From an uncultured Gammaproteobacteria bacterium (GTDB lineage: Bacteria > Patescibacteriota > Patescibacteriia > UBA9570 > XYC2-FULL-38-9): a stretch of DNA of 64,000 nucleotides. The notes under the pieces are model-generated. The model searched no databases, was not told the DNA's origin, and saw only the letters and a list, made by a program, of their open reading frames with translations. The position numbers and the translations under genes were made by a program. Positions 3,594-16,886 of this stretch are shown piece by piece. Position 1 is the stretch's first letter, and every line of letters starts with the position of its first letter. The stretch is from positions 64,135 through 128,134 of the forward strand of contig CAZBLE010000002.1 in the NCBI GenBank assembly GCA_964492735.1, in the 5' to 3' direction.

Positions 3594-5315
3594 ATGTTGA
3601 AACAACGGTTTCACTATCTATATTCAGCGCTCATTCCAGCGCTTCAAATTCAAATTGTTTTATTTTGTGGCTTTCTTTTAAGTCTCGGTGTGAGTATTTT
3701 TTATCAAGTAGTGAATGACCCTCGTTATCCAGTAGAGCGCCCCGCGTTATTATTTTATGGGATTATTATTAGTGGTGCCTGTGTATTATTGGGTCATTTA
3801 CTTAGTAAATACACTATGTATGACCATGAGCTTGATTTAGGGCATGGTGCGTGGGTCGTCTTTTTTACATGGATGATTGCGTGTGCGACTTCTGGCTTTG
3901 TGTTTATGCAGGCAGGATTTCCAGTGCCATCACGCGTTGAAGACTTTGCACTGGCGCGTCGATTTTTTGATGGCTTTTATGAATCAATGTCTGGGTTTAC
4001 AACGACTGGTACAAGTATTTTACCAAGCGTGGAAGCCTTTCCGCGGAGTATTTTATTTTGGCGTTCACTGACGCATTGGATTGGTGGGATGGGGATTGCG
4101 TTTATGGCACTGACCCTTTGGAAGGCAATTACTACTCGACGCTCAGAAGTTATTAATTCAGAAGCAGAGTCACCACATATTATTGCGTTTAAGAATGACC
4201 AAGAATCACGGCAGTCCGGATTTGATTTTTTGAAAACATACAGCTTTTTAAGCGCACTTTGCTTTATTGCGTTGTATCTGTCAGGTCATTTTTTTCGAGA
4301 CGTGCCATATGCACAGTGGTACGATAACCTTTTTGATTCCTTAACGATTACTTTTGGCACAATGGGAACTGGTGGCTTTGGTGTGTATGATTCAAGTATT
4401 GGGTTGCCGATTATAGAAAATGGACAGCTGATTACTGGTGGATTAAGGAATGCTGTTTCAGAATGGATCATTGCGTTTTTCATGGCTTTTGCTGGAATGA
4501 ATTTTGCATTATGGTATTCATTGATTTTTAAGGGCCGATTATTAAACATGCTGAAAAATCGTGAGTTCCAAGTATTTTGGTTATTCATTATTCTCAGCAC
4601 AGCTTCAATTACCTATTTATTGGTTCAATCTGGCATTCATGATTCTACACTTGAGTCATTACGTTTCGCGTTCTTTAATGTCACAAATATTGTTTCAACC
4701 ACTGGTTTTGGTAATGACGATTTCAACCTTTGGCCAGTTGGTGCTCAAGCGATCTTATTCTTGTCATACCTCACAGGCGCAATGGTTGGTTCCACCGGCG
4801 GTGGGTTAAAGTTTATTCGGTTTATCGTCTTGTTTAAATATCTCGGCATGCAAATTAAAAATTTGATCACCGGCTCTCAGAAATCTGGATTTGTTATCGA
4901 TGGTGTACGATACAATGATCGCAGTAGTGCATTGATTATTACGACCGTCACTATTTATTTCATGTTGTTTTTAGGAGGTGCGGTAGTCATTTTGTTGACA
5001 GGCAGTCAGGCGACATTTACAGATGGAACGATCCGCGGTATGGACTTTTTCACAGGATTTAATGCGGCGATTGCCAACCTTGGTAACATCGGGCCATCGA
5101 TTGTCAATGGTATTGCAGGAGCGGGCCCAACTGGGAACTACTCGTCATTTAGTACAGTTGCAAAAGTTGTTATGGCGATTCTGATGTTTATTGGCCGCAT
5201 TGGCGTGTTAACTTGCTTAATGTTGTTTGTGACAAAGCGTGGATTGGAAAATATGAACACTGAAAGAGCAGCAGTTGAATTTGATTCAGATACACCATTA
5301 TTACTCGGACGTTAA
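3594..5315 (+). CDS. trkH: TrkH/KtrB-family cation (K+) transporter, paralog 1.
   Basis: Multi-TM protein carrying the selectivity-filter-like motifs MSGFTTTGTSIL, FGTMGTGGFGVYD, VSTTGFGNDDF and GSTGGGLKFIRF that are characteristic of the Trk/Ktr/HKT superfamily. Confidence 0.8.
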   Translation: MLKQRFHYLYSALIPALQIQIVLFCGFLLSLGVSIFYQVVNDPRYPVERPALLFYGIIISGACVLLGHLLSKYTMYDHELDLGHGAWVVFFTWMIACATSGFVFMQAGFPVPSRVEDFALARRFFDGFYESMSGFTTTGTSILPSVEAFPRSILFWRSLTHWIGGMGIAFMALTLWKAITTRRSEVINSEAESPHIIAFKNDQESRQSGFDFLKTYSFLSALCFIALYLSGHFFRDVPYAQWYDNLFDSLTITFGTMGTGGFGVYDSSIGLPIIENGQLITGGLRNAVSEWIIAFFMAFAGMNFALWYSLIFKGRLLNMLKNREFQVFWLFIILSTASITYLLVQSGIHDSTLESLRFAFFNVTNIVSTTGFGNDDFNLWPVGAQAILFLSYLTGAMVGSTGGGLKFIRFIVLFKYLGMQIKNLITGSQKSGFVIDGVRYNDRSSALIITTVTIYFMLFLGGAVVILLTGSQATFTDGTIRGMDFFTGFNAAIANLGNIGPSIVNGIAGAGPTGNYSSFSTVAKVVMAILMFIGRIGVLTCLMLFVTKRGLENMNTERAAVEFDSDTPLLLGR

Positions 5316-5324
5316 TCTCATTTT

Positions 5325-5837
5325 ATGAATATTCTTTTTATCGGTTTAGTAGGTTCCGGAAAATCTACACTCGGTAGCATGGTCGCAAAAGAGCTTGGGT
5401 ATGCATTTATTGAAACAGACGTTTTGACATTAGATCGGACAGGGTACGCATCTATCAATGATGTCTATAAAGAAAGTGTTTCTTTTTGGGAAGAGACTGA
5501 GATTGAAGTCATGAAAGCGTTAAGTGGACATACAAAACAAGTGCTCGCTTGTGGTGGTGGTGTTGCGGAAAACGATATTAATTTTCAGTTTTTTCGAGAA
5601 AATTCTGAGACAACACACATCATCTATCTGTATTCTGAAGCAGGTGTATTGGCAGAGCGGGTACTGACTGCGCATTCTGAAATGACACTCAAAGAAGTCG
5701 ATGCAGTAACTGCAAAAATGAAAGAGCTGTTTAAAAAGCGTGATTCATTGTATCGATTGCAAGCAACGCATGTGATTGACACAACCAACAAAACGGCCAC
5801 AGACAATGTCCGAGAAATTTTAGATATTGTGGGTTAA
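5325..5837 (+). CDS. P-loop kinase of the shikimate-kinase/gluconokinase-like (AAA_33/SKI) fold.
   Basis: Walker A motif ILFIGLVGSGKSTLG, followed by ETD...ACGGGV and a lid region arranged as in shikimate-kinase-like proteins. The substrate is not assignable. Confidence 0.5.
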   Translation: MNILFIGLVGSGKSTLGSMVAKELGYAFIETDVLTLDRTGYASINDVYKESVSFWEETEIEVMKALSGHTKQVLACGGGVAENDINFQFFRENSETTHIIYLYSEAGVLAERVLTAHSEMTLKEVDAVTAKMKELFKKRDSLYRLQATHVIDTTNKTATDNVREILDIVG

Positions 5838-5867
5838 TGTTATCCACTGTTTCCACTATTCAAAACC

Positions 5868-5895
5868 TTGACCATTTATCACAGAGGCATATAAT
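5868..5895 (+). promoter_or_regulatory. Sigma70-like promoter of the second trkH paralog.
   Basis: TTGACC at 5868-5873, a 16-nt spacer, then TATAAT at 5890-5895. The leader that follows is about 215 nt long. Confidence 0.55.
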
Positions 5896-5940
5896 CATCT
5901 ACGGTTCATTCAATTGACTTTGTAGAGAATTTGCTTGCGG

Positions 5941-5970
5941 CAACTTGAGAAGCCTTATGCTTCCAAGTTG
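5941..5970 (+). promoter_or_regulatory. Second copy of the trkH leader hairpin motif (CAACTTGAGAAG...CTTCCAAGTTG).
   Basis: An imperfect inverted repeat with the same arms as 3421-3448, at about +40 from the predicted transcription start. A TTTTTTGTTG element also recurs further downstream at 6079-6088. Confidence 0.4.
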
Positions 5971-6116
5971 ATTGCTTGAGAAGGAAAAATTCTCACATGT
6001 ATTTCGATGAGTGGTGTGAAGATTTCACGTTGTTCATCGCAAGACATCCATGGTTAATTGTTTTCGTGAGCTGACGCTTTTTTGTTGCGTGTTCATTCAT
6101 GTGAATATTTTTTACT

Positions 6117-7727
6117 ATGTCTAATGTTGTTCGAACATTTTTTGACAAGCTATCATTTTTTACAGCAGCTGAAGCTACCGTTATCACGTTTGTTATTGCT
6201 TCATTAATTGGAGCTGGCGTGCTCTATGGTACTGAACATAATCGCTTGGTGCATGCAAAAAAGCCAATCTTACAAGAGGTGAGTGTTGAGCGTATTCATG
6301 CAACAGATGTTGACGTGCATGTTTCTGGTGAATCAAGCATACAAACACATACCTTCATCCAAGATGTTCAATATGAAGGCGAAACCTTTATTGACATGTG
6401 GTTCACTGCCGTGTCAGCATTGTGTGTCACTGGCCTTACGTCTACTGATTTTTCTGAATTTACACTCGCAGGCCAAATTGTTACGTTGGTGTTGATTCAA
6501 ATGGGTGGTTTGGGAATTATTGTGTTTACATCTTTATTCGCTTTGGCGATTGTTCGTGGACTGTCTGAGGGTGTCTCATTTCGACATTTATTATCTGGTG
6601 TTCTGGACACGGAAGACTATCATGTGTCAACGATGTTAAAGCATGTGTTCATGTACACATTTTTCTTTGAAGGCATTGCAGCAATGATTATGGGCATTCG
6701 ATTGCAATGGTTTAGCGACCCCGTACTATTACAAGGCTTAAATCCATGGTGGTGGTCGCTATTCCATTCTGTGTCTGCGTTTAATAATGCAGGCTTTGGG
6801 TTATTGAATAATAATTTAGTAAACTATGTCACTGATCCTGTGATTAATTTGACTATAGCGACATTGATTATTATCGGCGGGATCGGATATCCAGTCATGA
6901 TTGCGATTCATGCATGGCTTCGTTTAAAGGTTCGTTCTCGTAAAGATGCGACTCAAGCAACGCTTGATGCATCTGTGAGAGAAGTTATGGCATCTCCATT
7001 ACAACTACGCATCGCATTGATTGGTACCCTTCTGCTGTTGATGGTAGGTACAATTATTCCATTATTGGTTGAATGGAATAATCCTGTTATGGAAAGTCAT
7101 TCTATTCCAGAAAAAGTCTTGATTGCCTTTTTTCAAAGTACCTCAACGAGAACCGCTGGGTTTAACACAGTGGACATTGGCGTGCTTGGTGGCGCAACGT
7201 TATTGCTCTATATGATCCTAATGTTTATTGGTGCCAACCCGGCTGGTACGGGTGGTGGTATTAAAATCCCAACAATCGCAGTGCTGTATGGTTTTATGGT
7301 TGATTGGTTTAAAAAACCAGGCAGTCCAGTGACATTGTATCGATTGGTGGTGAGTAAATTTGCTGTTTCACATGCGATTCGATTACTGTTTTTCAGTTTT
7401 GTTTTTATGGGTAGTGTTTCATTTTTGATCATGGTTGCAGAATATCAATTTTTGATCACACCTGATCCAACTTTTAATTTTCTGAAGGTGATGTTTGAAA
7501 TTGTTTCGGCGTTCGGCACGGTTGGTTTATCAATGGGGTTTACTGGCAGCGTGACAAGTTTTGCTGCTGTTTTGACACCTTTTTCAAAAGTGATGTTAAT
7601 TTTGACAATGCTGTTTGGTCGGATTGGCCCACTAACCATTTTGGCGGCGTTGCCGTGGAAGCGAAAATACTTAAATCATCCACCAACGGGTGATCATGCA
7701 GATGCTCAGAAGATCCAGATTGGATAA
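6117..7727 (+). CDS. trkH: TrkH/KtrB-family cation (K+) transporter, paralog 2.
   Basis: ALCVTGLTSTDF, NNAGFGL, GGIGYPV and GTGGGIKIPT motifs. The C-terminus ends ...QKIQIG. Confidence 0.85.
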   Translation: MSNVVRTFFDKLSFFTAAEATVITFVIASLIGAGVLYGTEHNRLVHAKKPILQEVSVERIHATDVDVHVSGESSIQTHTFIQDVQYEGETFIDMWFTAVSALCVTGLTSTDFSEFTLAGQIVTLVLIQMGGLGIIVFTSLFALAIVRGLSEGVSFRHLLSGVLDTEDYHVSTMLKHVFMYTFFFEGIAAMIMGIRLQWFSDPVLLQGLNPWWWSLFHSVSAFNNAGFGLLNNNLVNYVTDPVINLTIATLIIIGGIGYPVMIAIHAWLRLKVRSRKDATQATLDASVREVMASPLQLRIALIGTLLLLMVGTIIPLLVEWNNPVMESHSIPEKVLIAFFQSTSTRTAGFNTVDIGVLGGATLLLYMILMFIGANPAGTGGGIKIPTIAVLYGFMVDWFKKPGSPVTLYRLVVSKFAVSHAIRLLFFSFVFMGSVSFLIMVAEYQFLITPDPTFNFLKVMFEIVSAFGTVGLSMGFTGSVTSFAAVLTPFSKVMLILTMLFGRIGPLTILAALPWKRKYLNHPPTGDHADAQKIQIG

Positions 7728-7895
7728 TTAAGAAATTGTGGTATCCCAGTAAGTTTTGTGTTGCCCGATTTGCGATGAACAGGAATGAGAGGAGGGGTCT
7801 TATTTATTGCCAATCGGACAACGTGCACATTCTTAATCGAATGAATCGTTGTTTGTTGCAAAAATACAGCACCACTATTCTCGTTGGAGAATCAC

Positions 7896-9392
7896 ATGAT
7901 TCAAAAGATGGATAAGGCGAGGTCTTGGTTTGCGGAGTGCTTTAAGCAGGTTAATTGGATGGATTGGAACATCCTCAACGTGCTAACCTTCGTCGTCGGC
8001 ACACTCTTCTTCGGGACGTTGCTGACGGTCATTGAAGGCCTGTCCATCACGGATGGAGTCTTCATGGTCACTTCGGCTCTGTGCGTCACGGGGCTCTCGA
8101 GCGTCGACTTCTCGCAGTTCACTCCGGCCGGTCAGATTCTCATTGCCCTCTGCATCCAGATGGGTGGGTTGGGAATCGTCACGTTTACTTTGCTGGCGGG
8201 CAGCTACATCGTGACTGGTTTGTCAAAGCGTGAGTCTGTTGCAGCGCTGCTGACCAGCGCTTTTGAAACGGACGACCACAAGTCTGCGCGGTACATGCTC
8301 TTCAGCGTGATCCTGCGGTATACGCTGCTTTTTGAAGGCGGCGGAACCCTGATCATGGGAGCATGGCTCCAGTGGGTCAACACCACAACCTTGTCCCCGG
8401 GCCAAAATCCGTGGACCTGGGCGTTTTTCCATTCCATTTCCGCGTTCAACAACGCAGGGTTTGGCATGGAAAGCGACAACCTGATGAAGTTCGCAGGAGA
8501 CCCGGTTATCAACGGTGTCATTGGCGGGCTGATTATCGCTGGAGGAATCGGCTACACTGTCATCCTCGCAGCTCACGTCTGGGTCCTGCGCCGTCTCGGA
8601 AACGGTGATAACTATCAGCAGCTGTTCGAGAAGCTGGTAGCTTCGCCAGTGCAGATCATCATCGCCCGGCGTGGCACGGTCCTGCTCCTTGCCGTTGGAA
8701 CTTTTGTGCCTCTCGTCATCGAGTGGAACAATCCGATGTTCAAGGACTTCAACACGTTCAGCATGCTGCTAGCAACCTGGTTCAACACCGGCGTGAGCCC
8801 GCGAACGGCAGGCTTCAACACCATTGATTTCAGCCAGTTGCATCCAACGACGCTTTGGCTAACCATTGCGTTGATGTTCATCGGCGCAAACCCTGGCGGC
8901 ACTGCGGGCGGGATCAAGATCCCGACCATGTACGTGCTGTGGGGCTACCTGCGCAACTGGCACCGTGAGCCTGGTGCGCACGTCATCGTTGCACATCACA
9001 TGGTGAGCGGGCGCACGGCCAAAAACGCCATCAACCTTTTCTTCTTCAGCGTCATTTGGGTTGGTATCGCAACCTTCCTGGTGACGGGCGCAGAAGAGTG
9101 GCGGATGGCTGAGGATCCGCGGATCAATCCGCTGGCGCTGCAATTTGAGGTCGTCAGCGCCTTCGGAACAGTTGGACTCAGCTTGGGACACCCGAGCGTC
9201 CCGTACTCGCTCTCTGGTGTGCTGTCCACCTTCAGCAAGTGGGTCATTATTCTCACCATGCTGATCGGTCGCCTCGGTCCGTTGACGTGGCTCGGGCTCT
9301 GGCCGTGGCCGCACAATGAGACAGCAGAGGGTGAAGATGCAGATCTCGATCCCGAAGCTCCTCGTGAGCCGGAGAAGCTGCAGATCGGCTGA
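7896..9392 (+). CDS. trkH: TrkH/KtrB-family cation (K+) transporter, paralog 3. It is GC-rich and probably a xenolog.
   Basis: About 50% identical to paralog 2 (ALCVTGLSSVDF, NNAGFGM, GGIGYTV, TAGGIKIPT), and it shares the C-terminal ...EKLQIG. The coding GC is visibly ~60%, against ~40% in the flanks. ATG 7896 is preceded by GGAGA. The ORF-track start at 7884 is a TTG. Confidence 0.85.
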   Translation: MIQKMDKARSWFAECFKQVNWMDWNILNVLTFVVGTLFFGTLLTVIEGLSITDGVFMVTSALCVTGLSSVDFSQFTPAGQILIALCIQMGGLGIVTFTLLAGSYIVTGLSKRESVAALLTSAFETDDHKSARYMLFSVILRYTLLFEGGGTLIMGAWLQWVNTTTLSPGQNPWTWAFFHSISAFNNAGFGMESDNLMKFAGDPVINGVIGGLIIAGGIGYTVILAAHVWVLRRLGNGDNYQQLFEKLVASPVQIIIARRGTVLLLAVGTFVPLVIEWNNPMFKDFNTFSMLLATWFNTGVSPRTAGFNTIDFSQLHPTTLWLTIALMFIGANPGGTAGGIKIPTMYVLWGYLRNWHREPGAHVIVAHHMVSGRTAKNAINLFFFSVIWVGIATFLVTGAEEWRMAEDPRINPLALQFEVVSAFGTVGLSLGHPSVPYSLSGVLSTFSKWVIILTMLIGRLGPLTWLGLWPWPHNETAEGEDADLDPEAPREPEKLQIG

Positions 9393-10495: not shown

Positions 10496-11803
10496 TTAAA
10501 AGAGATACAAGCGACCCATTAAATAGAGTGAGCTGACAGTCAGGGTGATGATTGTAATCGGCATGCCCATTTTCGCAAATTCACCGAACGAAATATTGAC
10601 ACCGTGTTTTTTTGCAAGCTCAACAGCGATGTATCCAGCAGAAGAGCCAATGATTGTTCCATTACCACCGAGACATGCTCCAAGGGCTAATGCCCACCAC
10701 ATTAAGTCCAAATCTGGTTGGCCAGTCATTTTTTCTTGGAGTTCAAAAATAACCGGAATCATTAAGGCGACAAATGGAATGTTATTAATGACAGTTGACG
10801 CAAGGCCAATTACCCAGACAATCATTAATAGCATTAAAGCGTAATTGTCAGAAAAACGAGCAATTTGCTCTGTAATAACAGAGAGGAAGCCAACTTTTTC
10901 TAGCGCGCCAACTTGCACGAATAAACCAACGAAGAACAATAATGAGTCCCATTCAACTTCTTGCATGGCTGCTTTAAACGGTACGCGGCCAATGGTCAAA
11001 AGCGCCAAGACAATACCCGAACTCAAGCCAACGACACCAACAGATACGCCAATAAACGGCTGAACCACAAATCCAATCATTGTTGCAATTAATACGATAA
11101 GTGAAACAACGACAACATAGGGTTGCATGCCTTTTTGCTTAAAAGCTAAGGCAATACGCCGAACAGCGAGCGTGCCCATAAATAGCTGAGTCAAATTCCC
11201 TTTAATGGATTGAAATGAATGACGGTAGATCAGCATCATGTATCCCATTGAAAAAACAGACATGATAAGTACGGGAATCCATAAATTTTGAATAAATGAT
11301 ATGAAAGAAAGCCCAGCTCGGACACCAATTAATGTATTTGGTGGATCACCAATCAATGTTAATGTGCCTCCAATGTTACTAAAAATGGCAATTGCAACAA
11401 CGAGCAATTTGGCATTCATGTTAAGATTTTTTGCTAAGGCAATCGCCAGTGGGATAATTAAAATAACCACTGTGACGTTGTTTAAAAATGTACTTGTAAT
11501 TGCTGTTACCCCAGTAAACAGTAAAAAAACGGCAATTGGACTGCCGCCTGAGAGCGTTGCGATTTTTGTATTGAGCCAGGAAAAAATCCCTGATTTTTCA
11601 GCAATTGCAACTGTAAACATGAGACCAAGCAATAAAGCGAGGGTTTCAAAGTCAATCGCATGAATTGCTTCCTCCCAGGTAAGAATACCTGTCACTATGA
11701 GTAAGACAGCGCCTGCGAGCGCAATCATGGTGTTATCGATGCGTTCTATGAATAAAAGAAAAACGCACAGAACGAACACTCCAACGGCAAATGCCATTTC
11801 CAT
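10496..11803 (-). CDS. ArsB/NhaD-superfamily ion permease (CitMHS/YbiR-like).
   Basis: About 12 TM segments with the IGDPPN motif (GGTLTLIGDPPNTLIG) and the internal duplicated topology typical of ArsB/NhaD permeases. Confidence 0.6.
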   Translation of the reverse strand: MEMAFAVGVFVLCVFLLFIERIDNTMIALAGAVLLIVTGILTWEEAIHAIDFETLALLLGLMFTVAIAEKSGIFSWLNTKIATLSGGSPIAVFLLFTGVTAITSTFLNNVTVVILIIPLAIALAKNLNMNAKLLVVAIAIFSNIGGTLTLIGDPPNTLIGVRAGLSFISFIQNLWIPVLIMSVFSMGYMMLIYRHSFQSIKGNLTQLFMGTLAVRRIALAFKQKGMQPYVVVVSLIVLIATMIGFVVQPFIGVSVGVVGLSSGIVLALLTIGRVPFKAAMQEVEWDSLLFFVGLFVQVGALEKVGFLSVITEQIARFSDNYALMLLMIVWVIGLASTVINNIPFVALMIPVIFELQEKMTGQPDLDLMWWALALGACLGGNGTIIGSSAGYIAVELAKKHGVNISFGEFAKMGMPITIITLTVSSLYLMGRLYLF

Positions 11804-12144
11804 ATAATAATGTTAGTAATTAAAAAAACTTAATGAAAAGCCAAAAAGCAGCATACGCCTCTTTTAGTTCAGGTGCAATAGATTCGTTGCGTGAACTGTG
11901 GACAGAAATGTTGATATTGTACGTATTGACATACAAGGTATTTTAAGATAGAGTGGACCCTGTAAAAAGATTTCTTTTTCGCACATTTTATATTGATTTT
12001 TGCAACAACCAGATCCTATTGAGTATATACGGAGACGAGTGAATAATTCTATTGTTCGTTGGTCCCCATAGATAACTCGAATCAGACTGTGGGAGGATCG
12101 AGTTGTAAAAAAGCATTTCAACCTTAATTTTAAGGTATTTTCGG

Positions 12145-12173
12145 TTGACTATGTGCAATAAATCATATAAAAT
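12145..12173 (+). promoter_or_regulatory. Sigma70-like promoter of the A/V-ATPase operon.
   Basis: TTGACT at 12145-12150, a 17-nt spacer, then TAAAAT at 12168-12173. The ORF-track ATG at 12174 falls inside the -10 element. Confidence 0.5.
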
Positions 12174-12218
12174 ATGATAGAATTTTATTCATCTACGATC
12201 ATTAATATTGAATTCACC

Positions 12219-12503
12219 ATGCAAAAAATTGTTGAACTCATTGGGCTAGAAGAGCGGCACGCAAAGGCTACTGCTGCTTTGGAAGAGGAAATGGCTCAAA
12301 AGAATGCAGCGGCAGACGCTGAGCATACACAAGCAATGAACGCTGCTGAGGCGCGTTTACAAACAAAAGATCAAACAATTGATACAATTGTAGCGGCAAA
12401 AAAGGAAGAAATTGCTGTAGATCTAAAAAATGAAACCGCAACAGATAAAACAACAGTTACAGTTACAGATATTGAAAAAGTTATTTTAGAACATATTAAT
12501 TAA
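12219..12503 (+). CDS. atpH: A/V-type ATPase subunit H-like (small coiled-coil stator subunit).
   Basis: A 94-aa Ala/Glu/Lys-rich predicted coiled coil immediately upstream of subunit I. Its position matches archaeal ahaH. Confidence 0.5.
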   Translation: MQKIVELIGLEERHAKATAALEEEMAQKNAAADAEHTQAMNAAEARLQTKDQTIDTIVAAKKEEIAVDLKNETATDKTTVTVTDIEKVILEHIN

Positions 12504-12512
12504 TCTTTCTGT

Positions 12513-14552
12513 ATGGCAGTATTGGCATGTAAAAATATTACCATCAACTTTCCGAAAGAATCGACAAAGCAGGTGCTGCAAGCGATTCAACGGTTGCAAG
12601 TTGTTGAATTGCGTGAACAGCAAACAACAGTTGCATTACCGGAAAATATGGTAAATAAAGAGGCGGAAATTATGCACCAAATTGAGGTTGCAAATAAAGC
12701 CTACGATGCAATTGCAACGCTTGCTCCAAAAAAGGGCGCGCTTTCATTTTTAGCAGATGAACGTATTGCAATTTCATCTGAAGAATTTGCAGACGCAGTT
12801 GAGAAAAAGAGTACATTATTAAGCTGGGCTGAAGACATTACTGTACAACATGATGAGCAAATTCGTTTACGCGATGAACAAGAGGCTTTGGAACAAACTA
12901 TCCACACAGTTCAACCATTGCGCGATGTTGACGTAAAAATCTTTGGTGATTTTCAATACGTTGCGTTCGTTCCATTTTTTGTGCATGAAACTCGAAATGA
13001 CTCAGTCTTAAGTGATATTCAAAAGCGATTTCCTGAGGCTGTTGTGGAAGCCATTGATAAGATGAATGATGAATACGTCAATGTTGCGGCAGTAGCAAAA
13101 GAAGACCGTGAGGCGCTCGTTGCATATTTAATGGATAATGCAACAATGATTTCTGTTGACACAACAGTAAATGGTTCATTCCATGATGTATTTACACAAT
13201 CTTCGAATCGATTAGAAGAAGTAAAAAACCGCATTGCTGAGATTGATGCATTTATGGCAGAAAAAGCGAACCATATTGAATCAATGGCCGTGCTCAAAGA
13301 TGTCTTGCATTCTGAGATTAAAACATTATTTGCATGGCATTCACTTAAAGAAACTGGTGATACGTATATTGTTGAAGGATATTTAGAGCCAGGAGCTGAA
13401 GAATTGGTGACTCGCACATTTGATGAAATGTCAGGTGTGAGTGTTTCTGTTACTGAAGGATCTGATCAAACAAAAGTTGTCATGAAAAACAATTGGTTTG
13501 TGAAACCATTTGAAATCGTGACACAAATGATGGGAACCCCACTCGGTAATGGTATTGACCCAACACCATTACTCGCAATGTTCTTTGTTTTCATGTACGG
13601 GCTCGCATTATCTGAAGCTGGCTATGGCTTAGTCTGTGCCATTCTTACTGGAGTCTTGTTGCTCGTTGTGAAAAACATGAAACAAGGACCAAAGTCATTA
13701 TTCACAATTATCTTTTACGCTTCAATTTCAACTGTGGTTGTTGGTGCTATCTTTGGTAGTTGGTTTGGTGTTACTCCATCAGATATTAATATCGATAACC
13801 CAGATCAATATTTACCACATACCCGCTTTTTAATTAGCGTTGGTGTCTGGCCACTTGCTCAAAAACTACAGCTACTCAACCCATTGCAGCAAATTTTAAC
13901 ATTAATGATTGCAATGGGAGTGCTTGGTATTTTTCATTTGATGGTCGGATTAGCGCTATCAGTGCGTCAATATCTCAAACGCGGTGAACCAATGGAAGCA
14001 TTTTTTGCAGCTGGTTCATGGATGGTATTTCTTACGTTGATCATTCTCAATGTTCTCAATATGCAAGGCATGTTGGGAGAAGCGATGAAAAACTCGAGTG
14101 TACTCACAATCATTTTTGGTGTGTATTTCGTCATCATGATTCCAATTGTTGGCCGTGAGTCTGCAAGTTGGTTTGGGAAATTTGCCAAAGGTGCTTTTGA
14201 TCTCTTCTTTGGAGCGATTGGATACATCTCAGACATTCTGTCTTATACCCGTCTCGTTGCTCTCGGGCTTGCGACCGGTATTATTGCCGCCGTTGTTAAT
14301 ACATTAGCAGCTCTAGCTGGTGGTGGTTTGGCAAATTCTGATAACCTCGGAAAGGTTGTGATTGGTTACGTGATTATGCTCGTCATCTTCCTTGGTGGCC
14401 ATCTGTTCAATATCGCATTAAATGTGTTGGGCTCGTATATCACTGTTGGCCGTTTGCATTTTGTGGAATTCTTTGGAAAATTCTTTGAAAGTGGTGGTCA
14501 AGAACTGCAGCCACTGTCACCTTCTGAAGAATATATTCGTATCGTTAAATAA
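12513..14552 (+). CDS. atpI: A/V-type ATPase subunit I (membrane a-subunit).
   Basis: 679 aa: a ~350-aa hydrophilic N-terminal domain, then a C-terminal multi-TM domain that includes the conserved Arg-containing helix region. Confidence 0.8.
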   Translation: MAVLACKNITINFPKESTKQVLQAIQRLQVVELREQQTTVALPENMVNKEAEIMHQIEVANKAYDAIATLAPKKGALSFLADERIAISSEEFADAVEKKSTLLSWAEDITVQHDEQIRLRDEQEALEQTIHTVQPLRDVDVKIFGDFQYVAFVPFFVHETRNDSVLSDIQKRFPEAVVEAIDKMNDEYVNVAAVAKEDREALVAYLMDNATMISVDTTVNGSFHDVFTQSSNRLEEVKNRIAEIDAFMAEKANHIESMAVLKDVLHSEIKTLFAWHSLKETGDTYIVEGYLEPGAEELVTRTFDEMSGVSVSVTEGSDQTKVVMKNNWFVKPFEIVTQMMGTPLGNGIDPTPLLAMFFVFMYGLALSEAGYGLVCAILTGVLLLVVKNMKQGPKSLFTIIFYASISTVVVGAIFGSWFGVTPSDINIDNPDQYLPHTRFLISVGVWPLAQKLQLLNPLQQILTLMIAMGVLGIFHLMVGLALSVRQYLKRGEPMEAFFAAGSWMVFLTLIILNVLNMQGMLGEAMKNSSVLTIIFGVYFVIMIPIVGRESASWFGKFAKGAFDLFFGAIGYISDILSYTRLVALGLATGIIAAVVNTLAALAGGGLANSDNLGKVVIGYVIMLVIFLGGHLFNIALNVLGSYITVGRLHFVEFFGKFFESGGQELQPLSPSEEYIRIVK

Positions 14553-14582
14553 CTATTTAAAATCTATTAATTTTTTACAACT

Positions 14583-15053
14583 ATGATCGGAATTGTATAC
14601 GCAATTATCGGAGCAGCGATCGCTTCAGGCTTCGCTGGTATTGGATCTTCAATTGGTGTGGCTCGCGTGGGTCGAACTGGTGCAGGATTAGTAGCACAAG
14701 ACGGCAGTCAATTTGGAAGTATCTTATTGTTTTCTGCACTCCCTGGCTCACAGGCTGTCTACGGAATGCTTGCTGCAATTTTAATTTTGCAAAACACAGG
14801 CGTGTTATCTGGTACTCCAAAAGCGGTGACTCCAGAACAAGGATTAATGTTATTGTTTGCTGGTTTGCCAGTTGCATTAACATGTTTAGCTTCTGGAACA
14901 TTCCAGGGCTATACTATTAGTTCAGGTATCCAAATTATTGCAAAAGATAAAACACGCACTGGTCAAGTAATTATTTTAGCTGCGATGGTTGAAACATTTG
15001 CGATTTTTGGCCTTTTGGTCACTATCTTGATGATTAATGGCGTGAAGATTTAA
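14583..15053 (+). CDS. atpK: A/V-type ATPase proteolipid subunit K: a 16-kDa, 4-TM duplicated c-subunit with an NtpK-like Na+-binding signature.
   Basis: 156 aa, made of two hairpins. The only carboxylate is E137, in TM4 (AAMVETFAIFGL). TM2 carries L53-S56-Q57-Y60 (ALPGSQAVYG) and TM3 carries Q108. The spacing matches E. hirae NtpK (L61/T64/Q65/Y68/Q110/E139). Confidence 0.85.
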   Translation: MIGIVYAIIGAAIASGFAGIGSSIGVARVGRTGAGLVAQDGSQFGSILLFSALPGSQAVYGMLAAILILQNTGVLSGTPKAVTPEQGLMLLFAGLPVALTCLASGTFQGYTISSGIQIIAKDKTRTGQVIILAAMVETFAIFGLLVTILMINGVKI

Positions 15054-15072
15054 TTCATAGTTTGATTAGCAC

Positions 15073-15621
15073 ATGACTCTTCATACAACAATTGAGCAGA
15101 GAATGAAGGATGATGAGCAGGTCTTGCGTGGCCAGCTTATTGCATCACTTGAATCTCAACAGTTAACACATCGTCAAGAATTGGCTGAAAAGGAAAAGCT
15201 CGCCAAAGCAATGATCGATGATGTTGCTGCAGAACGTGTCTTTTTATCAACGTATCAAATGAAGCAAGATGTCTATTTTGCTGGCATTGAAGTTGATCGA
15301 AAGACGATTGATCAAGCATATCAAAACGTTTTGCCACAATTGCTCAACACAAAAACATTTATCGCACATATCGAAAAATTTTTAGCAGGCGTGGACACAG
15401 CTACAACATTGATTGCTGTTGGCACGCACGCTCAAGTACTTGCTGATGCAGTACGCGCTGCTGGACATACAGCAGTTGAAGTCAAAGAGGGTTCAGGAAA
15501 TGGCGCAGTGTCATATGAACAAGGCAGTATCCGTGCAGAATTTTCTATCGATGAATTTCTTGCAGATGTAAAAAAGATGACAATTTCATTTGTCTCAGAA
15601 TTTATTCGCAACAATGGCTAA
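15073..15621 (+). CDS. atpE: A/V-type ATPase subunit E.
   Basis: 182 aa: an N-terminal coiled coil plus a C-terminal globular domain. Its operon position is between K and C. Confidence 0.65.
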   Translation: MTLHTTIEQRMKDDEQVLRGQLIASLESQQLTHRQELAEKEKLAKAMIDDVAAERVFLSTYQMKQDVYFAGIEVDRKTIDQAYQNVLPQLLNTKTFIAHIEKFLAGVDTATTLIAVGTHAQVLADAVRAAGHTAVEVKEGSGNGAVSYEQGSIRAEFSIDEFLADVKKMTISFVSEFIRNNG

Positions 15622-16534
15622 CGATATCTCTACTATTGCAGCAAGTTTCTTGAAGGATCTCTACGCAATCCCGCCTTTTGCTGCTATGCGCGCTGCAGTT
15701 GAAGGGGGTTCGTTGCTTGCGAATCCTGAAGGATTCTTAGGCTCTGCATTCACCACAGAAACAGGCGCTGTTGTTGGCGAAGGCCAGCTTGATGCCTATT
15801 ATCGATCAGTTCTTGATCGAATTATCGCGGAATTACCAGAAAACAGTCTAGAGCGTCAATATATTGTCTTAACGGATGAATTTCGATTCATTAAAGAGAA
15901 GTATTTAGTGTTCCGTTCCACAGAGGTGTCACGCTTTTTTGAAACACTGACCCAAGAATTTGCTGACTCACTCACGTTGATCGATCTGTACCGTGCTGAC
16001 CTTGAAGAATTAGAAGAACGAATTCATCAGATTGATGATACGTTTGAGTTTGTGAGTGTGATTGATCGCAGCTATCTCAGTGTACTCGCTCGATTAGCCG
16101 GCAGTGCTGATGCATACATGCGTGAAATGATTCGAGTAAAAATTGAGCATTACAACATCATGACTGCGTTGCGTATGACGCAACTTGGAAAAAACCGCGA
16201 GCTCATTGAATCATTATTTATCACCGGTGATCTTGTTGATACCTATGCATTAGAACACCTCGAATATCGCGATGTTGTTTCAGAAATTGGAATGATGCTT
16301 GGCCTCAAGCCAGACCAAACATCCGTTACTTCTATTGAAACACATCTTTTAAATCATGAGATTGCTGTGATTAACACAGCGACTTTTGAGGGAGTGACTG
16401 GCGCGCGAATTATTCAATATGTTGAACAACTCCGCTTTTTCATTGCCAATATGAAAGTTGTATTTGCGAGTAAAGCAATGGGATTAAAAGAAGAGGAAGT
16501 AATTCAACGCTTCGTTGCTTACGACGCTATCTAA
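15614..16534 (+). CDS. atpC: A/V-type ATPase subunit C (eukaryotic d-like).
   Basis: About 307 aa and helical. ATG 15614 overlaps the atpE stop (ATGGCTAA). Its operon position is between E and F. Confidence 0.65.
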   Translation: MANDISTIAASFLKDLYAIPPFAAMRAAVEGGSLLANPEGFLGSAFTTETGAVVGEGQLDAYYRSVLDRIIAELPENSLERQYIVLTDEFRFIKEKYLVFRSTEVSRFFETLTQEFADSLTLIDLYRADLEELEERIHQIDDTFEFVSVIDRSYLSVLARLAGSADAYMREMIRVKIEHYNIMTALRMTQLGKNRELIESLFITGDLVDTYALEHLEYRDVVSEIGMMLGLKPDQTSVTSIETHLLNHEIAVINTATFEGVTGARIIQYVEQLRFFIANMKVVFASKAMGLKEEEVIQRFVAYDAI

Positions 16535-16544
16535 TATTGATTGT

Positions 16545-16877
16545 ATGAAATCACAAACAGCCATTGCCATCGGAAAAACAGGAACAACAACCGGCCTTCG
16601 AATGTTTGGTTTTGTCTGCCATGAAGTAGACAATATGGAAGACATGACAGGCATTATCGAGATGCTCGAAGCGCAGCGTGCAGGTATTGGCATGGTGCTT
16701 TTGACATCAGATATTCAATTGTCAGATCGACAGTTGAAAAAGTTTCAAGCTCTTGGTCTCCCGTCTATTACCATTCCAATTCACGGAGATCAAAAAGCAG
16801 TTGCGACAGCGCAAATGGAACAACTGATCGAAAAAGCGGTTGGTATGAAACTCAATTTCTTAACGAGCGAAAAATAA
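16545..16877 (+). CDS. atpF: A/V-type ATPase subunit F.
   Basis: MKSQTAIAIGKTGTTTGLRMFGF... is the typical subunit-F N-terminus (compare MKIAVIGD.DTV.GFRLAG). About 110 aa. Confidence 0.7.
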   Translation: MKSQTAIAIGKTGTTTGLRMFGFVCHEVDNMEDMTGIIEMLEAQRAGIGMVLLTSDIQLSDRQLKKFQALGLPSITIPIHGDQKAVATAQMEQLIEKAVGMKLNFLTSEK

Positions 16878-16886
16878 TTCACGAAT

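What the first reader, a model, noticed from the sequence alone, without database searches (positions are those of the whole stretch)
14583..15053. The V/A-ATPase proteolipid K is an NtpK-type 16-kDa duplicated c-subunit with an intact Na+-binding signature.
The 156-aa K subunit has four TM helices but only one ion-binding carboxylate, E137 in TM4. TM2 carries L53/S56/Q57/Y60 and TM3 carries Q108. The spacing is the same as the Na+-coordinating residues of Enterococcus hirae NtpK (L61/T64/Q65/Y68/Q110/E139), and NtpK is also 156 aa. One site per two hairpins, together with the Na+ ligands, predicts an ATP-driven Na+ pump rather than an ATP synthase. That would be notable physiology for a small-genome, Patescibacteria-like bacterium.
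Basis: partly seen in the sequence, partly recalled or inferred. Interest (0 to 1): 0.7.

Follow-up and report, generated by a model that had tools for sequence, protein, structure and literature searches.

The report
NtpK-type sodium-site rotor subunit, V-ATPase
The gene encodes an ordinary NtpK-type rotor subunit of a bacterial V/A-type ATPase with a complete sodium-binding site, a feature shared by nearly all related bacterial enzymes and already reported for Patescibacteria, and the sequence alone cannot tell whether the enzyme pumps sodium or makes ATP.

Summary
Window 14583-15053 (+) encodes a 156-aa, 15.7-kDa proteolipid with four helices. Its best solved relative is Enterococcus hirae NtpK (2BL2; E=1.4e-23; model TM-score 0.90, rmsd 1.1 Å). 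L53/S56/Q57/Y60/Q108/E137 align column for column with NtpK L61/T64/Q65/Y68/Q110/E139. Gly55 sits where single-hairpin subunits carry their carboxylate, and no other membrane-embedded acid exists.

The gene lies in a compact nine-gene V/A-ATPase operon, with gene order as in the enterococcal ntp operon. Its subunit I is closest to E. hirae NtpI and keeps both arginines. The host is a Patescibacteria bacterium.

The finding is not unusual. All 74 related operons whose K alignment reached every site carry the same motif. A published survey predicts 4,927 of 9,167 A-type ATPases to be Na+-specific. Na+-capable V-ATPases in candidate phyla radiation (CPR) bacteria were described in 2018.

The "one site per two hairpins, therefore a pump" argument fails, because a Na+ enzyme with a V-type c subunit has been shown to synthesise ATP. 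Pump direction remains plausible only from context: fermentative CPR physiology and three adjacent TrkH-family K+ transporter genes, echoing enterococcal NtpJ.

In passing, the F-A-B-D block is about 95% identical in DNA to a relative whose flanking sequence is about 70% identical, which points to a swapped V1 cassette.

The parts
14583..15053 (+). Subunit K (c, proteolipid). It is 156 aa with two ATP-synt_C hairpins and four helices. The single ion site comprises the L53 carbonyl, S56, Q57, Q108 and E137, with Y60 as the stabiliser.
   Evidence: NtpK E=1.4e-23; PF00137, 2 stretches; NF005124 137.8 bits, above the cut-off of 127; model matches 2bl2_A, TM 0.90, rmsd 1.1 Å.
12513..14552 (+). Subunit I (a, stator). 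R580, R647 and E652 align with NtpI R573, R629 and E634.
   Evidence: best PDB hit is 8wci_P, 'V-type sodium ATPase subunit I', E=5e-35.. Residues checked.
12174..12503 (+). 109-aa ORF at the position of the enterococcal ntpF gene (peripheral-stalk G/H-type subunit). It is assigned by position only.
   Evidence: No Pfam, NCBIfam or PDB match. It lies 9 nt upstream of I. It is conserved at the same place in L002 at 50% identity.
15073..15621 (+). 182-aa ORF at the position of subunit E (peripheral stalk). It is assigned by position only.
   Evidence: No Pfam, NCBIfam or PDB match. Homologues sit at the same position in L002 (62%) and L003 (23%).
15614..16534 (+). Subunit C (d/AC39). The likely start is the ATG at 15614, which overlaps E by 8 nt.
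   Evidence: PF01992. The gene call in the identical contig L001 gives 306 aa..
16545..16877 (+). Subunit F (110 aa).
   Evidence: Weak NCBIfam hits to V-type subunit F, below the cut-off. Gene call in L001. Hits at the syntenic position in 5 loci.
16887..18722 (+). Catalytic subunit A (611 aa).
   Evidence: NF003220 888 bits (cut-off 470) and four Pfam domains.
18737..20131 (+). Subunit B (464 aa).
   Evidence: NF003235 723.6 bits (cut-off 349).
20137..20754 (+). Central-stalk subunit D (205 aa).
   Evidence: PF01813 E=9.5e-53 and TIGR00309.
3594..9392 (+). Context only; the association is inferred. Three TrkH-family K+(/Na+) transporter genes lie at 3594-5315, 6117-7727 and 7884-9392, with a shikimate kinase gene at 5325-5837 between the first two.
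   Evidence: PF02386 and TIGR00933. The second and third are 31% identical to the TrkH-family gene at the end of the ntp operon of Enterococcus eurekensis (L071 13934-15103), and the first is conserved next to the operon in L002.
10496..11803 (-). Context only. This is an ion-transporter-superfamily permease (CitMHS/ArsB-like). Its hits to DASS Na+-coupled symporter, NhaD and MamN models are all below their cut-offs.

Best explanation
The gene encodes the rotor proteolipid of a complete V/A-type rotary ATPase of the E. hirae Ntp type in a Patescibacteria (Parcubacteria/Paceibacteria-related) genome.

Each 4-helix K subunit holds one ion site. E137 (helix 4), Q108 (helix 3), and S56, Q57 and the L53 carbonyl (helix 2) would coordinate Na+, and Y60 would hold the glutamate. 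Sites rotate past the two conserved arginines of subunit I (R580, R647).

What is shown: homology, fold, the full ligand set, the intact operon, and strict conservation of the ligands.

What is inferred:
- Na+ is the ion used in vivo (likelihood about 0.8).
- The enzyme normally runs as an ATP-driven Na+ exporter that builds a membrane potential or sodium-motive force and keeps Na+ low while TrkH-type systems take up K+ (likelihood about 0.55-0.6).

The pump direction rests on the generally fermentative, respiration-poor physiology reported for CPR bacteria and on the neighbouring K+ transporter genes. It does not rest on the K sequence.
For: - Residue-by-residue alignment to NtpK.
- AlphaFold2 model with pLDDT 97.2, whose best PDB match is 2bl2_A at TM 0.90 and rmsd 1.1 Å.
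- The H+-type human c subunit (6wlw_1) has Ile/Ile/Ile at the S56/Q57/Q108 positions, and Thermus K has Leu and Phe at the Q57 and Y60 positions.
- Q57, Y60, Q108 and E137 are invariant, and position 56 is Ser or Thr, in 54 homologues down to 38% identity.
- The motif meets the published criterion for Na+ specificity (PMC2359735; PMC11738941).
- Subunit I is closest to the Na+-ATPase NtpI and both arginines are kept.
- The nine genes are packed with gaps of -8 to 30 nt.
- Three TrkH-family genes lie upstream, and an Enterococcus ntp operon carries a homologous TrkH-family gene.
- CPR V-type ATPases have been proposed to hydrolyse fermentation-derived ATP and export Na+ (PMC6146748).
Against: - No activity or ion-binding data exist.
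- Coordinates of the model were not available, so ligand distances were not measured.
- The T64 to Ser change is untested in a V-type ring.
- The named relatives of K come from freshwater (Chattahoochee lakes; a Paceibacteria metagenome-assembled genome whose isolate name begins ME2015), where Na+ is scarce, and Na+-type enzymes move H+ when Na+ is absent.
- An enzyme with the same type of c subunit is a proven ATP synthase.
- Only 64 kb of the genome was seen, so an F-type ATPase or a primary Na+ pump elsewhere cannot be excluded.
- No TrkA/KtrA gating subunit gene was found in the window.
Confidence: 0.6

Rival explanations
1. The enzyme has the same architecture and Na+ site but works mainly as a Na+-driven ATP synthase. 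It would use a sodium gradient made by another system or supplied by a host or the environment.
For: The A1AO enzyme of Eubacterium callanderi has a V-type c subunit with one Na+ site and synthesises ATP at 90-150 mV (PMC9171764). With a 10-mer ring the ratio would be 3.3 Na+ per ATP, within the 2.66-5.6 range that paper gives for ATP synthases. One paper assumed that CPR V-type ATPases make ATP (PMC11974145).
Against: No Na+-gradient generator appears in the 64-kb window. CPR genomes are generally reported to lack respiratory chains. The neighbouring K+ uptake genes resemble the enterococcal Na+-extrusion and K+-uptake arrangement.
Confidence: 0.2
2. Despite the motif, the coupling ion in the cell is H+, or H+ and Na+ are used promiscuously, because the organism lives in low-Na+ water.
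For: Na+-dependent rotary ATPases translocate H+ when Na+ is absent (PMC2359735). The closest named relatives of K are freshwater Patescibacteria. Source databases label the homologues either 'H+-transporting' or 'H+/Na+-transporting'.
Against: All five ligand positions and the stabilising Tyr are kept under strict conservation across 54 homologues and in all 74 fully aligned operons, which would not be expected if Na+ binding were irrelevant. From my own knowledge, not tested here: E. hirae NtpK binds Na+ with micromolar affinity, which would suffice in fresh water.
Confidence: 0.15
3. The operon is a decaying or non-functional horizontally acquired remnant.
For: The peripheral-stalk ORFs (109 aa and 182 aa) match no profile. 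CPR A/V-type operons are thought to be horizontally acquired.
Against: All nine ORFs are intact and tightly spaced. The operon's GC content (0.40-0.43) is like the rest of the window. The same nine genes are conserved in L002. The catalytic subunits score far above their family cut-offs.
Confidence: 0.02

Closest known systems
Enterococcus hirae NtpK (PDB 2BL2), the K10 rotor ring of the V-type Na+-ATPase, and its ntp operon
   Same: Same length (156 aa), four helices and one carboxylate in helix 4. Ligands sit at identical alignment columns. Identity is 41% with rmsd 1.1 Å. Subunit I is closest to NtpI. Gene order matches ntpF-I-K-E-C-G-A-B-D (my knowledge of the E. hirae operon; consistent with the I, K, F, A, B, D hits in L071). 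A TrkH-family gene is linked to the operon.
   Different: Ser replaces Thr64. The helix 2-3 loop is six residues longer. The TrkH-family genes are three, lie upstream and are separated from the operon by two opposite-strand genes, rather than being one gene at the operon's end. Ring stoichiometry and ion dependence are unknown. The host is a Patescibacteria bacterium, not a Bacillota.
Na+ A1AO ATP synthase of Eubacterium callanderi, with a V-type c subunit
   Same: It is a bacterial A/V-type enzyme whose c subunit has one Na+ site per two hairpins.
   Different: That enzyme is shown to synthesise ATP and sits in an acetogen that has a Na+-motive respiratory system. No such system is seen here.
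Eukaryotic V-ATPase 16-kDa proteolipid c (for example human ATP6V0C, 6wlw_1)
   Same: It has the same duplicated 4-helix fold and a single Glu in helix 4 (TM-score about 0.8; alignment).
   Different: It is H+-type, with Ile/Ile/Ile at the S56/Q57/Q108 positions. Identity is 24%.
Thermus thermophilus V/A-ATPase subunit K (for example 6qum_O)
   Same: It is a homologous hairpin from a bacterial V/A-type enzyme.
   Different: It is a single hairpin with a carboxylate in every hairpin, with Leu and Phe at the Q57 and Y60 positions. It is an H+-coupled synthase.
V-type ATPases already reported in CPR/Patescibacteria genomes
   Same: V-type operons in Paceibacterales and other CPR have been read as Na+-capable from the K motif (PMC6146748; PMC11974145; PMC10656485).
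   Different: This lineage's closest named relatives are freshwater taxa rather than soda-lake or hyperalkaline ones.

Membership tests
NtpK-type Na+-binding V/A-ATPase proteolipid | Two ATP-synt_C hairpins in one polypeptide of about 156 aa, forming four transmembrane helices | tested here: met
   PF00137 matches in 2 stretches. The protein is 156 aa. The model has helices 2-39, 41-72, 84-121 and 123-153. NF005124 scores 137.8 bits against a cut-off of 127.
NtpK-type Na+-binding V/A-ATPase proteolipid | A single membrane-embedded carboxylate in helix 4, with the helix 2 equivalent lost | tested here: met
   The only acidic residues are D40, E85, D122 and E137. The first three lie at helix ends. 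G55 aligns with the Thermus carboxylate.
NtpK-type Na+-binding V/A-ATPase proteolipid | A complete Na+ ligand set at the NtpK columns: L61 carbonyl, T/S64, Q65, Q110 and E139, plus the stabilising Y68 | tested here: met
   L53, S56, Q57, Q108, E137 and Y60 sit at those columns. Ser is accepted in the published motif (Ser/Thr66).
NtpK-type Na+-binding V/A-ATPase proteolipid | Three-dimensional fold superimposable on 2BL2 | tested here: met
   Foldseek rank 1 is 2bl2_A with TM 0.90, rmsd 1.1 Å and 150 aligned columns. Side-chain to ion distances were not measured.
NtpK-type Na+-binding V/A-ATPase proteolipid | Measured Na+ binding, or Na+-dependent ATPase activity or transport | not testable with these tools
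   This needs expression and biochemistry.
NtpK-type Na+-binding V/A-ATPase proteolipid | Decameric ring (10 sites per turn) | not tested
   No multimer modelling was available, so the stoichiometry is unknown.
Bacterial V/A-type ATPase operon (Ntp type) | Genes for I, K, C(d), F, A, B and D are present and adjacent | tested here: met
   Intergenic gaps run from -8 to 30 nt.
Bacterial V/A-type ATPase operon (Ntp type) | Peripheral-stalk subunits E and G/H | tested here: inconclusive
   ORFs of 182 aa and 109 aa sit at the expected positions but match no profile or solved chain. They are conserved in L002.
Bacterial V/A-type ATPase operon (Ntp type) | Stator arginines of subunit I facing the ring | tested here: met
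   R580 and R647 align with NtpI R573 and R629.
ATP-driven Na+ pump (physiological direction as in E. hirae) | Net ATP hydrolysis with Na+ export in vivo | not testable with these tools
   The K sequence does not decide direction. Only context bears on it.

The most novel reading that the evidence does not exclude
In this freshwater-related Patescibacteria lineage, the Na+-type V/A-ATPase together with several TrkH-type transporters is the cell's only primary membrane energiser. These ultra-small cells would therefore run on a sodium-motive force in low-Na+ water, using a Ser-variant NtpK site. In addition, the soluble A3B3DF motor is exchanged between lineages as a cassette, independently of the membrane sector.
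Probability: 0.25. Interest if true: 0.4.

Novelty: new member of a known kind. Interest (0 to 1): 0.2.

Why it matters
The finding adds one more well-supported example that CPR/Patescibacteria with V/A-type ATPases carry the Na+ motif. It gives a clean candidate operon for testing ion specificity and direction in an uncultured lineage. It opens no new question: the motif, the fold, the operon type and their presence in CPR are all already described. The most useful outcome is the correction that a duplicated one-site c subunit does not by itself predict a pump.

Tried and rejected
- Stalk subunits. I looked for profile or solved-structure matches for the 109-aa and 182-aa ORFs in Pfam, NCBIfam and PDB sequences, with E-values up to 1. 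Nothing significant appeared. They are called G/H and E by position only.
- TrkA/KtrA gating subunit and primary Na+ pumps. I scanned essentially all window ORFs of at least 100 aa against Pfam and found neither.
- Sample habitat. I searched papers for the accessions SRR12487046 and ERZ650281 and found no paper. Only the Ca. Elulimicrobium description turned up, and it does not mention ATPases.
- Ligand distances. I wanted to measure them in the model, but model coordinates are not exposed to the script sandbox.
None exists in the window protein. However, 13 of 54 homologues carry Glu at position 51.
- Recent horizontal acquisition of the operon judged from composition. The operon's GC is like the rest of the window, so I did not pursue this.
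- F-type ATPase elsewhere in the genome.

Full report
**1. The observation**

Window 14583-15053 (+) is an intact ORF that starts at the first start codon after the upstream stop. The opposite strand is full of stops. The protein is 15.7 kDa and strongly hydrophobic. L53, S56, Q57, Y60, Q108 and E137 are at the stated positions.

phmmer against every PDB chain ranks Enterococcus hirae NtpK first (2bl2_A, 156 aa, E=1.4e-23). The printed alignment pairs query 53/56/57/60 with NtpK 61/64/65/68, Q108 with Q110, and E137 with E139.

The protein has only four acidic residues: D40, E85, D122 and E137. An AlphaFold2 model built on 54 homologues has pLDDT 97.2 and pTM 0.89, with helices at 2-39, 41-72, 84-93/95-121 and 123-153. 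D40, E85 and D122 therefore sit at helix ends, and only E137 is buried in a helix.

The carboxylate of the single-hairpin Thermus K subunit (its PET motif) aligns with query G55, so hairpin 1 has lost its site.

**2. Fold and discrimination from H+ types**

Foldseek of the model against the PDB puts 2bl2_A first, with TM 0.90, rmsd 1.1 Å over 150 columns and 41% identity. Eukaryotic c, c' and c'' subunits follow at TM about 0.8 and 20-24% identity.

I recalled the human 16-kDa proteolipid sequence and verified that it is identical to 6wlw_1. It aligns with Ile, Ile and Ile at the S56, Q57 and Q108 positions, while keeping the Tyr and the helix 4 Glu. Thermus K has Leu and Phe at the Q57 and Y60 positions.

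The window protein thus carries exactly the residues that separate the Na+ type from these two H+ types.

Mulkidjanian et al. give the NtpK ligands as Glu139, Gln110, the Thr64 hydroxyl, the Leu61 backbone carbonyl and Gln65, with Tyr68 as a non-ligating stabiliser. The equivalent hydroxyl ligand in the Ilyobacter tartaricus Na+ ring is a serine (PMC2359735). The Thr to Ser change is therefore conservative and lies inside the published motif.

**3. Surroundings**

The gene is third in a compact nine-gene cluster with intergenic gaps of -8 to 30 nt:

| Position | Product | Basis |
|---|---|---|
| 12174-12503 | 109-aa ORF | position only |
| 12513-14552 | subunit I | profile and PDB hits |
| 14583-15053 | subunit K | profile, PDB and fold |
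| 15073-15621 | 182-aa ORF | position only |
| 15614-16534 | subunit C | Pfam |
| 16545-16877 | subunit F | weak NCBIfam hits, synteny |
| 16887-18722 | subunit A | profile hits |
| 18737-20131 | subunit B | profile hits |
| 20137-20754 | subunit D | profile hits |

I, K, C, A, B and D are identified by Pfam or NCBIfam. F is identified only weakly.

The 109-aa and 182-aa ORFs match no profile and no solved chain. They are called G/H-type and E only because they occupy those places and are conserved in the syntenic contig L002.

The best solved relative of subunit I is the E. hirae 'V-type sodium ATPase subunit I' (8wci_P, E=5e-35). R580, R647 and E652 align with NtpI R573, R629 and E634.

Upstream lie three TrkH-family cation transporter genes (3594-5315, 6117-7727, 7884-9392) and, on the opposite strand, an ion-transporter-superfamily permease (10496-11803). 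The ntp operon of Enterococcus eurekensis (L071) is followed by a TrkH-family gene that is 31% identical to the second and third of these. The closest syntenic relative, L002, also has TrkH, Kup and NhaB/CitMHS-like genes next to the operon. Among the 82 fetched loci, only these show the linkage.

**4. The organism**

- RuvB from the window finds named relatives only in the Patescibacteria group: Kerfeldbacteria, Falkowbacteria and Komeilibacteria.
- The best species-representative match for subunit A is a Candidatus Paceibacteria metagenome-assembled genome at 69%, followed by many Bacillota at about 60%.
- K homologues at 66-69% identity are labelled Ca. Elulimicrobium humile and Candidatus Parcubacteria.

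The operon's GC content (0.40-0.43) matches the rest of the window.

**5. How common this is**

In the 75 related operons where a K gene was found, every K whose alignment reached all the sites (74 of 75) has (L/I/V)-P-(G/A)-(T/S)-Q-x-x-Y, the helix 3 Gln and the helix 4 Glu. The remaining alignment stopped before the Glu. Thr is usual. Ser occurs only in L001, L002, L003 and L032; L003 and L032 are named CPR genomes, and L001 and L002 are the window itself and its syntenic relative.

In the 54 word-index homologues, Q57, Y60, Q108 and E137 are invariant. Position 56 is Ser in 46 and Thr in 8.

The ProAD survey predicts 4,927 of 9,167 A-type ATPases to be Na+-specific. Among bacterial genera with a single A-type enzyme, it counts 682 Na+ genera against 180 H+ genera (PMC11738941).

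For CPR specifically:
- Mahendrarajah et al. found CPR genomes with only an A/V-type complex, acquired horizontally (PMC10656485).
- A 2025 study reports V-type ATPases in Paceibacterales (PMC11974145).

The finding is therefore a further member of a well-described kind.

**6. Mechanism and direction**

The sequence supports a rotor in which each K subunit carries one Na+ past the stator arginines.

Litty and Muller purified a Na+ A1AO enzyme with a V-type c subunit and showed ATP synthesis at 90-150 mV, explicitly against that expectation (PMC9171764). They also note that E. hirae has 10 subunits per ring. That would give 3.3 ions per ATP, within the range they give for ATP synthases.

Direction must therefore come from physiology. 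CPR genomes are reported to be fermentative and to lack most of the respiratory chain. No Na+-gradient generator is present in this 64-kb window. The linked K+ uptake genes also recall the enterococcal arrangement. In E. hirae the V-ATPase extrudes Na+ while the NtpJ (KtrB-type) system takes up K+; this is from my own knowledge and was not tested here.

I rate Na+ coupling at about 0.8 and pump direction at about 0.55-0.6. Two caveats apply. The named relatives come from fresh water, and Na+-type enzymes can move H+ when Na+ is lacking.

**7. Noticed in passing: a mosaic operon**

I compared the window with the syntenic contig L002. DNA identity in 300-nt bins is 59-83% from 11962 to 16461 and from 20662 to 24561. 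It is 91-99% from about 16762 to 20661, with a transitional 86% bin at 16462-16761. The high-identity block covers genes F, A, B and D.

| Gene | Protein identity | Third-codon-position identity |
|---|---|---|
| F | 99% | 94% |
| A | 99% | 87% |
| B | 99% | 88% |
| D | 99% | 77% |
| 109-aa ORF | 50% | not computed |
| I | 68% | not computed |
| K | 87% | not computed |
| E | 62% | 56% |
| C | 67% | 45% |

The block corresponds to the soluble A3B3DF motor. It appears to have been exchanged between two lineages long after the rest of the locus diverged.

A separately assembled contig, L001, is 100% identical to window 12400-21941 across both blocks. This argues against an assembly chimera on the window side.

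The K motif is unchanged in both versions.

**8. Verdict**

Novelty: a new member of a known kind. Interest: low.

Noticed in passing
window about 16500-20700 (genes F, A, B, D) compared with L002 11966-16175: The operon is a mosaic. The F-A-B-D block is 91-99% identical in DNA and 99% in protein to the syntenic contig L002. The rest of the operon and both flanks are only about 59-83% identical in DNA (I 68%, K 87%, E 62%, C 67% in protein). Third-codon identity is 77-94% inside the block against 45-56% outside. This suggests that the soluble A3B3DF motor was exchanged between lineages as a cassette.
   Followed up: partly
window 3594-5315, 6117-7727, 7884-9392: Three paralogous TrkH-family cation transporter genes lie in a row upstream of the ATPase operon, and no TrkA/KtrA gating subunit gene is found in the window. 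The second and third also hit the fungal/plant-type TRK/HKT model TIGR00934, below its cut-off. They are 31% identical to the TrkH-family gene at the end of an Enterococcus ntp operon.
   Followed up: partly
window 12174-12503 and 15073-15621: The two ORFs at the positions of the peripheral-stalk subunits (G/H-type and E) match no Pfam, NCBIfam or PDB sequence, although the rest of the operon is readily recognised. The stalk subunits are very divergent in this lineage.
   Followed up: partly
alignment A1, query position 51 (helix 2, four residues before G55): 13 of 54 K homologues carry a Glu here, where the window protein has Ser. This would be a second membrane-embedded carboxylate one helical turn from the ion site in those relatives.
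   Followed up: no
window 10496-11803 (-): An ion-transporter-superfamily permease (CitMHS/ArsB-like) lies between the TrkH genes and the operon. Its hits to the MamN, DASS Na+-coupled symporter, ArsB and NhaD models are all below their cut-offs, so its substrate is unknown.
   Followed up: no
window 14553-14582: The 30-nt spacer before K (taactatttaaaatctattaattttttacaact) has no obvious purine-rich Shine-Dalgarno sequence.
   Followed up: no
window 15590-15621: The mechanical ORF list starts subunit C at TTG 15590. The gene call in the identical contig L001 starts at ATG 15614, which overlaps the stop of the preceding ORF by 8 nt.
   Followed up: yes
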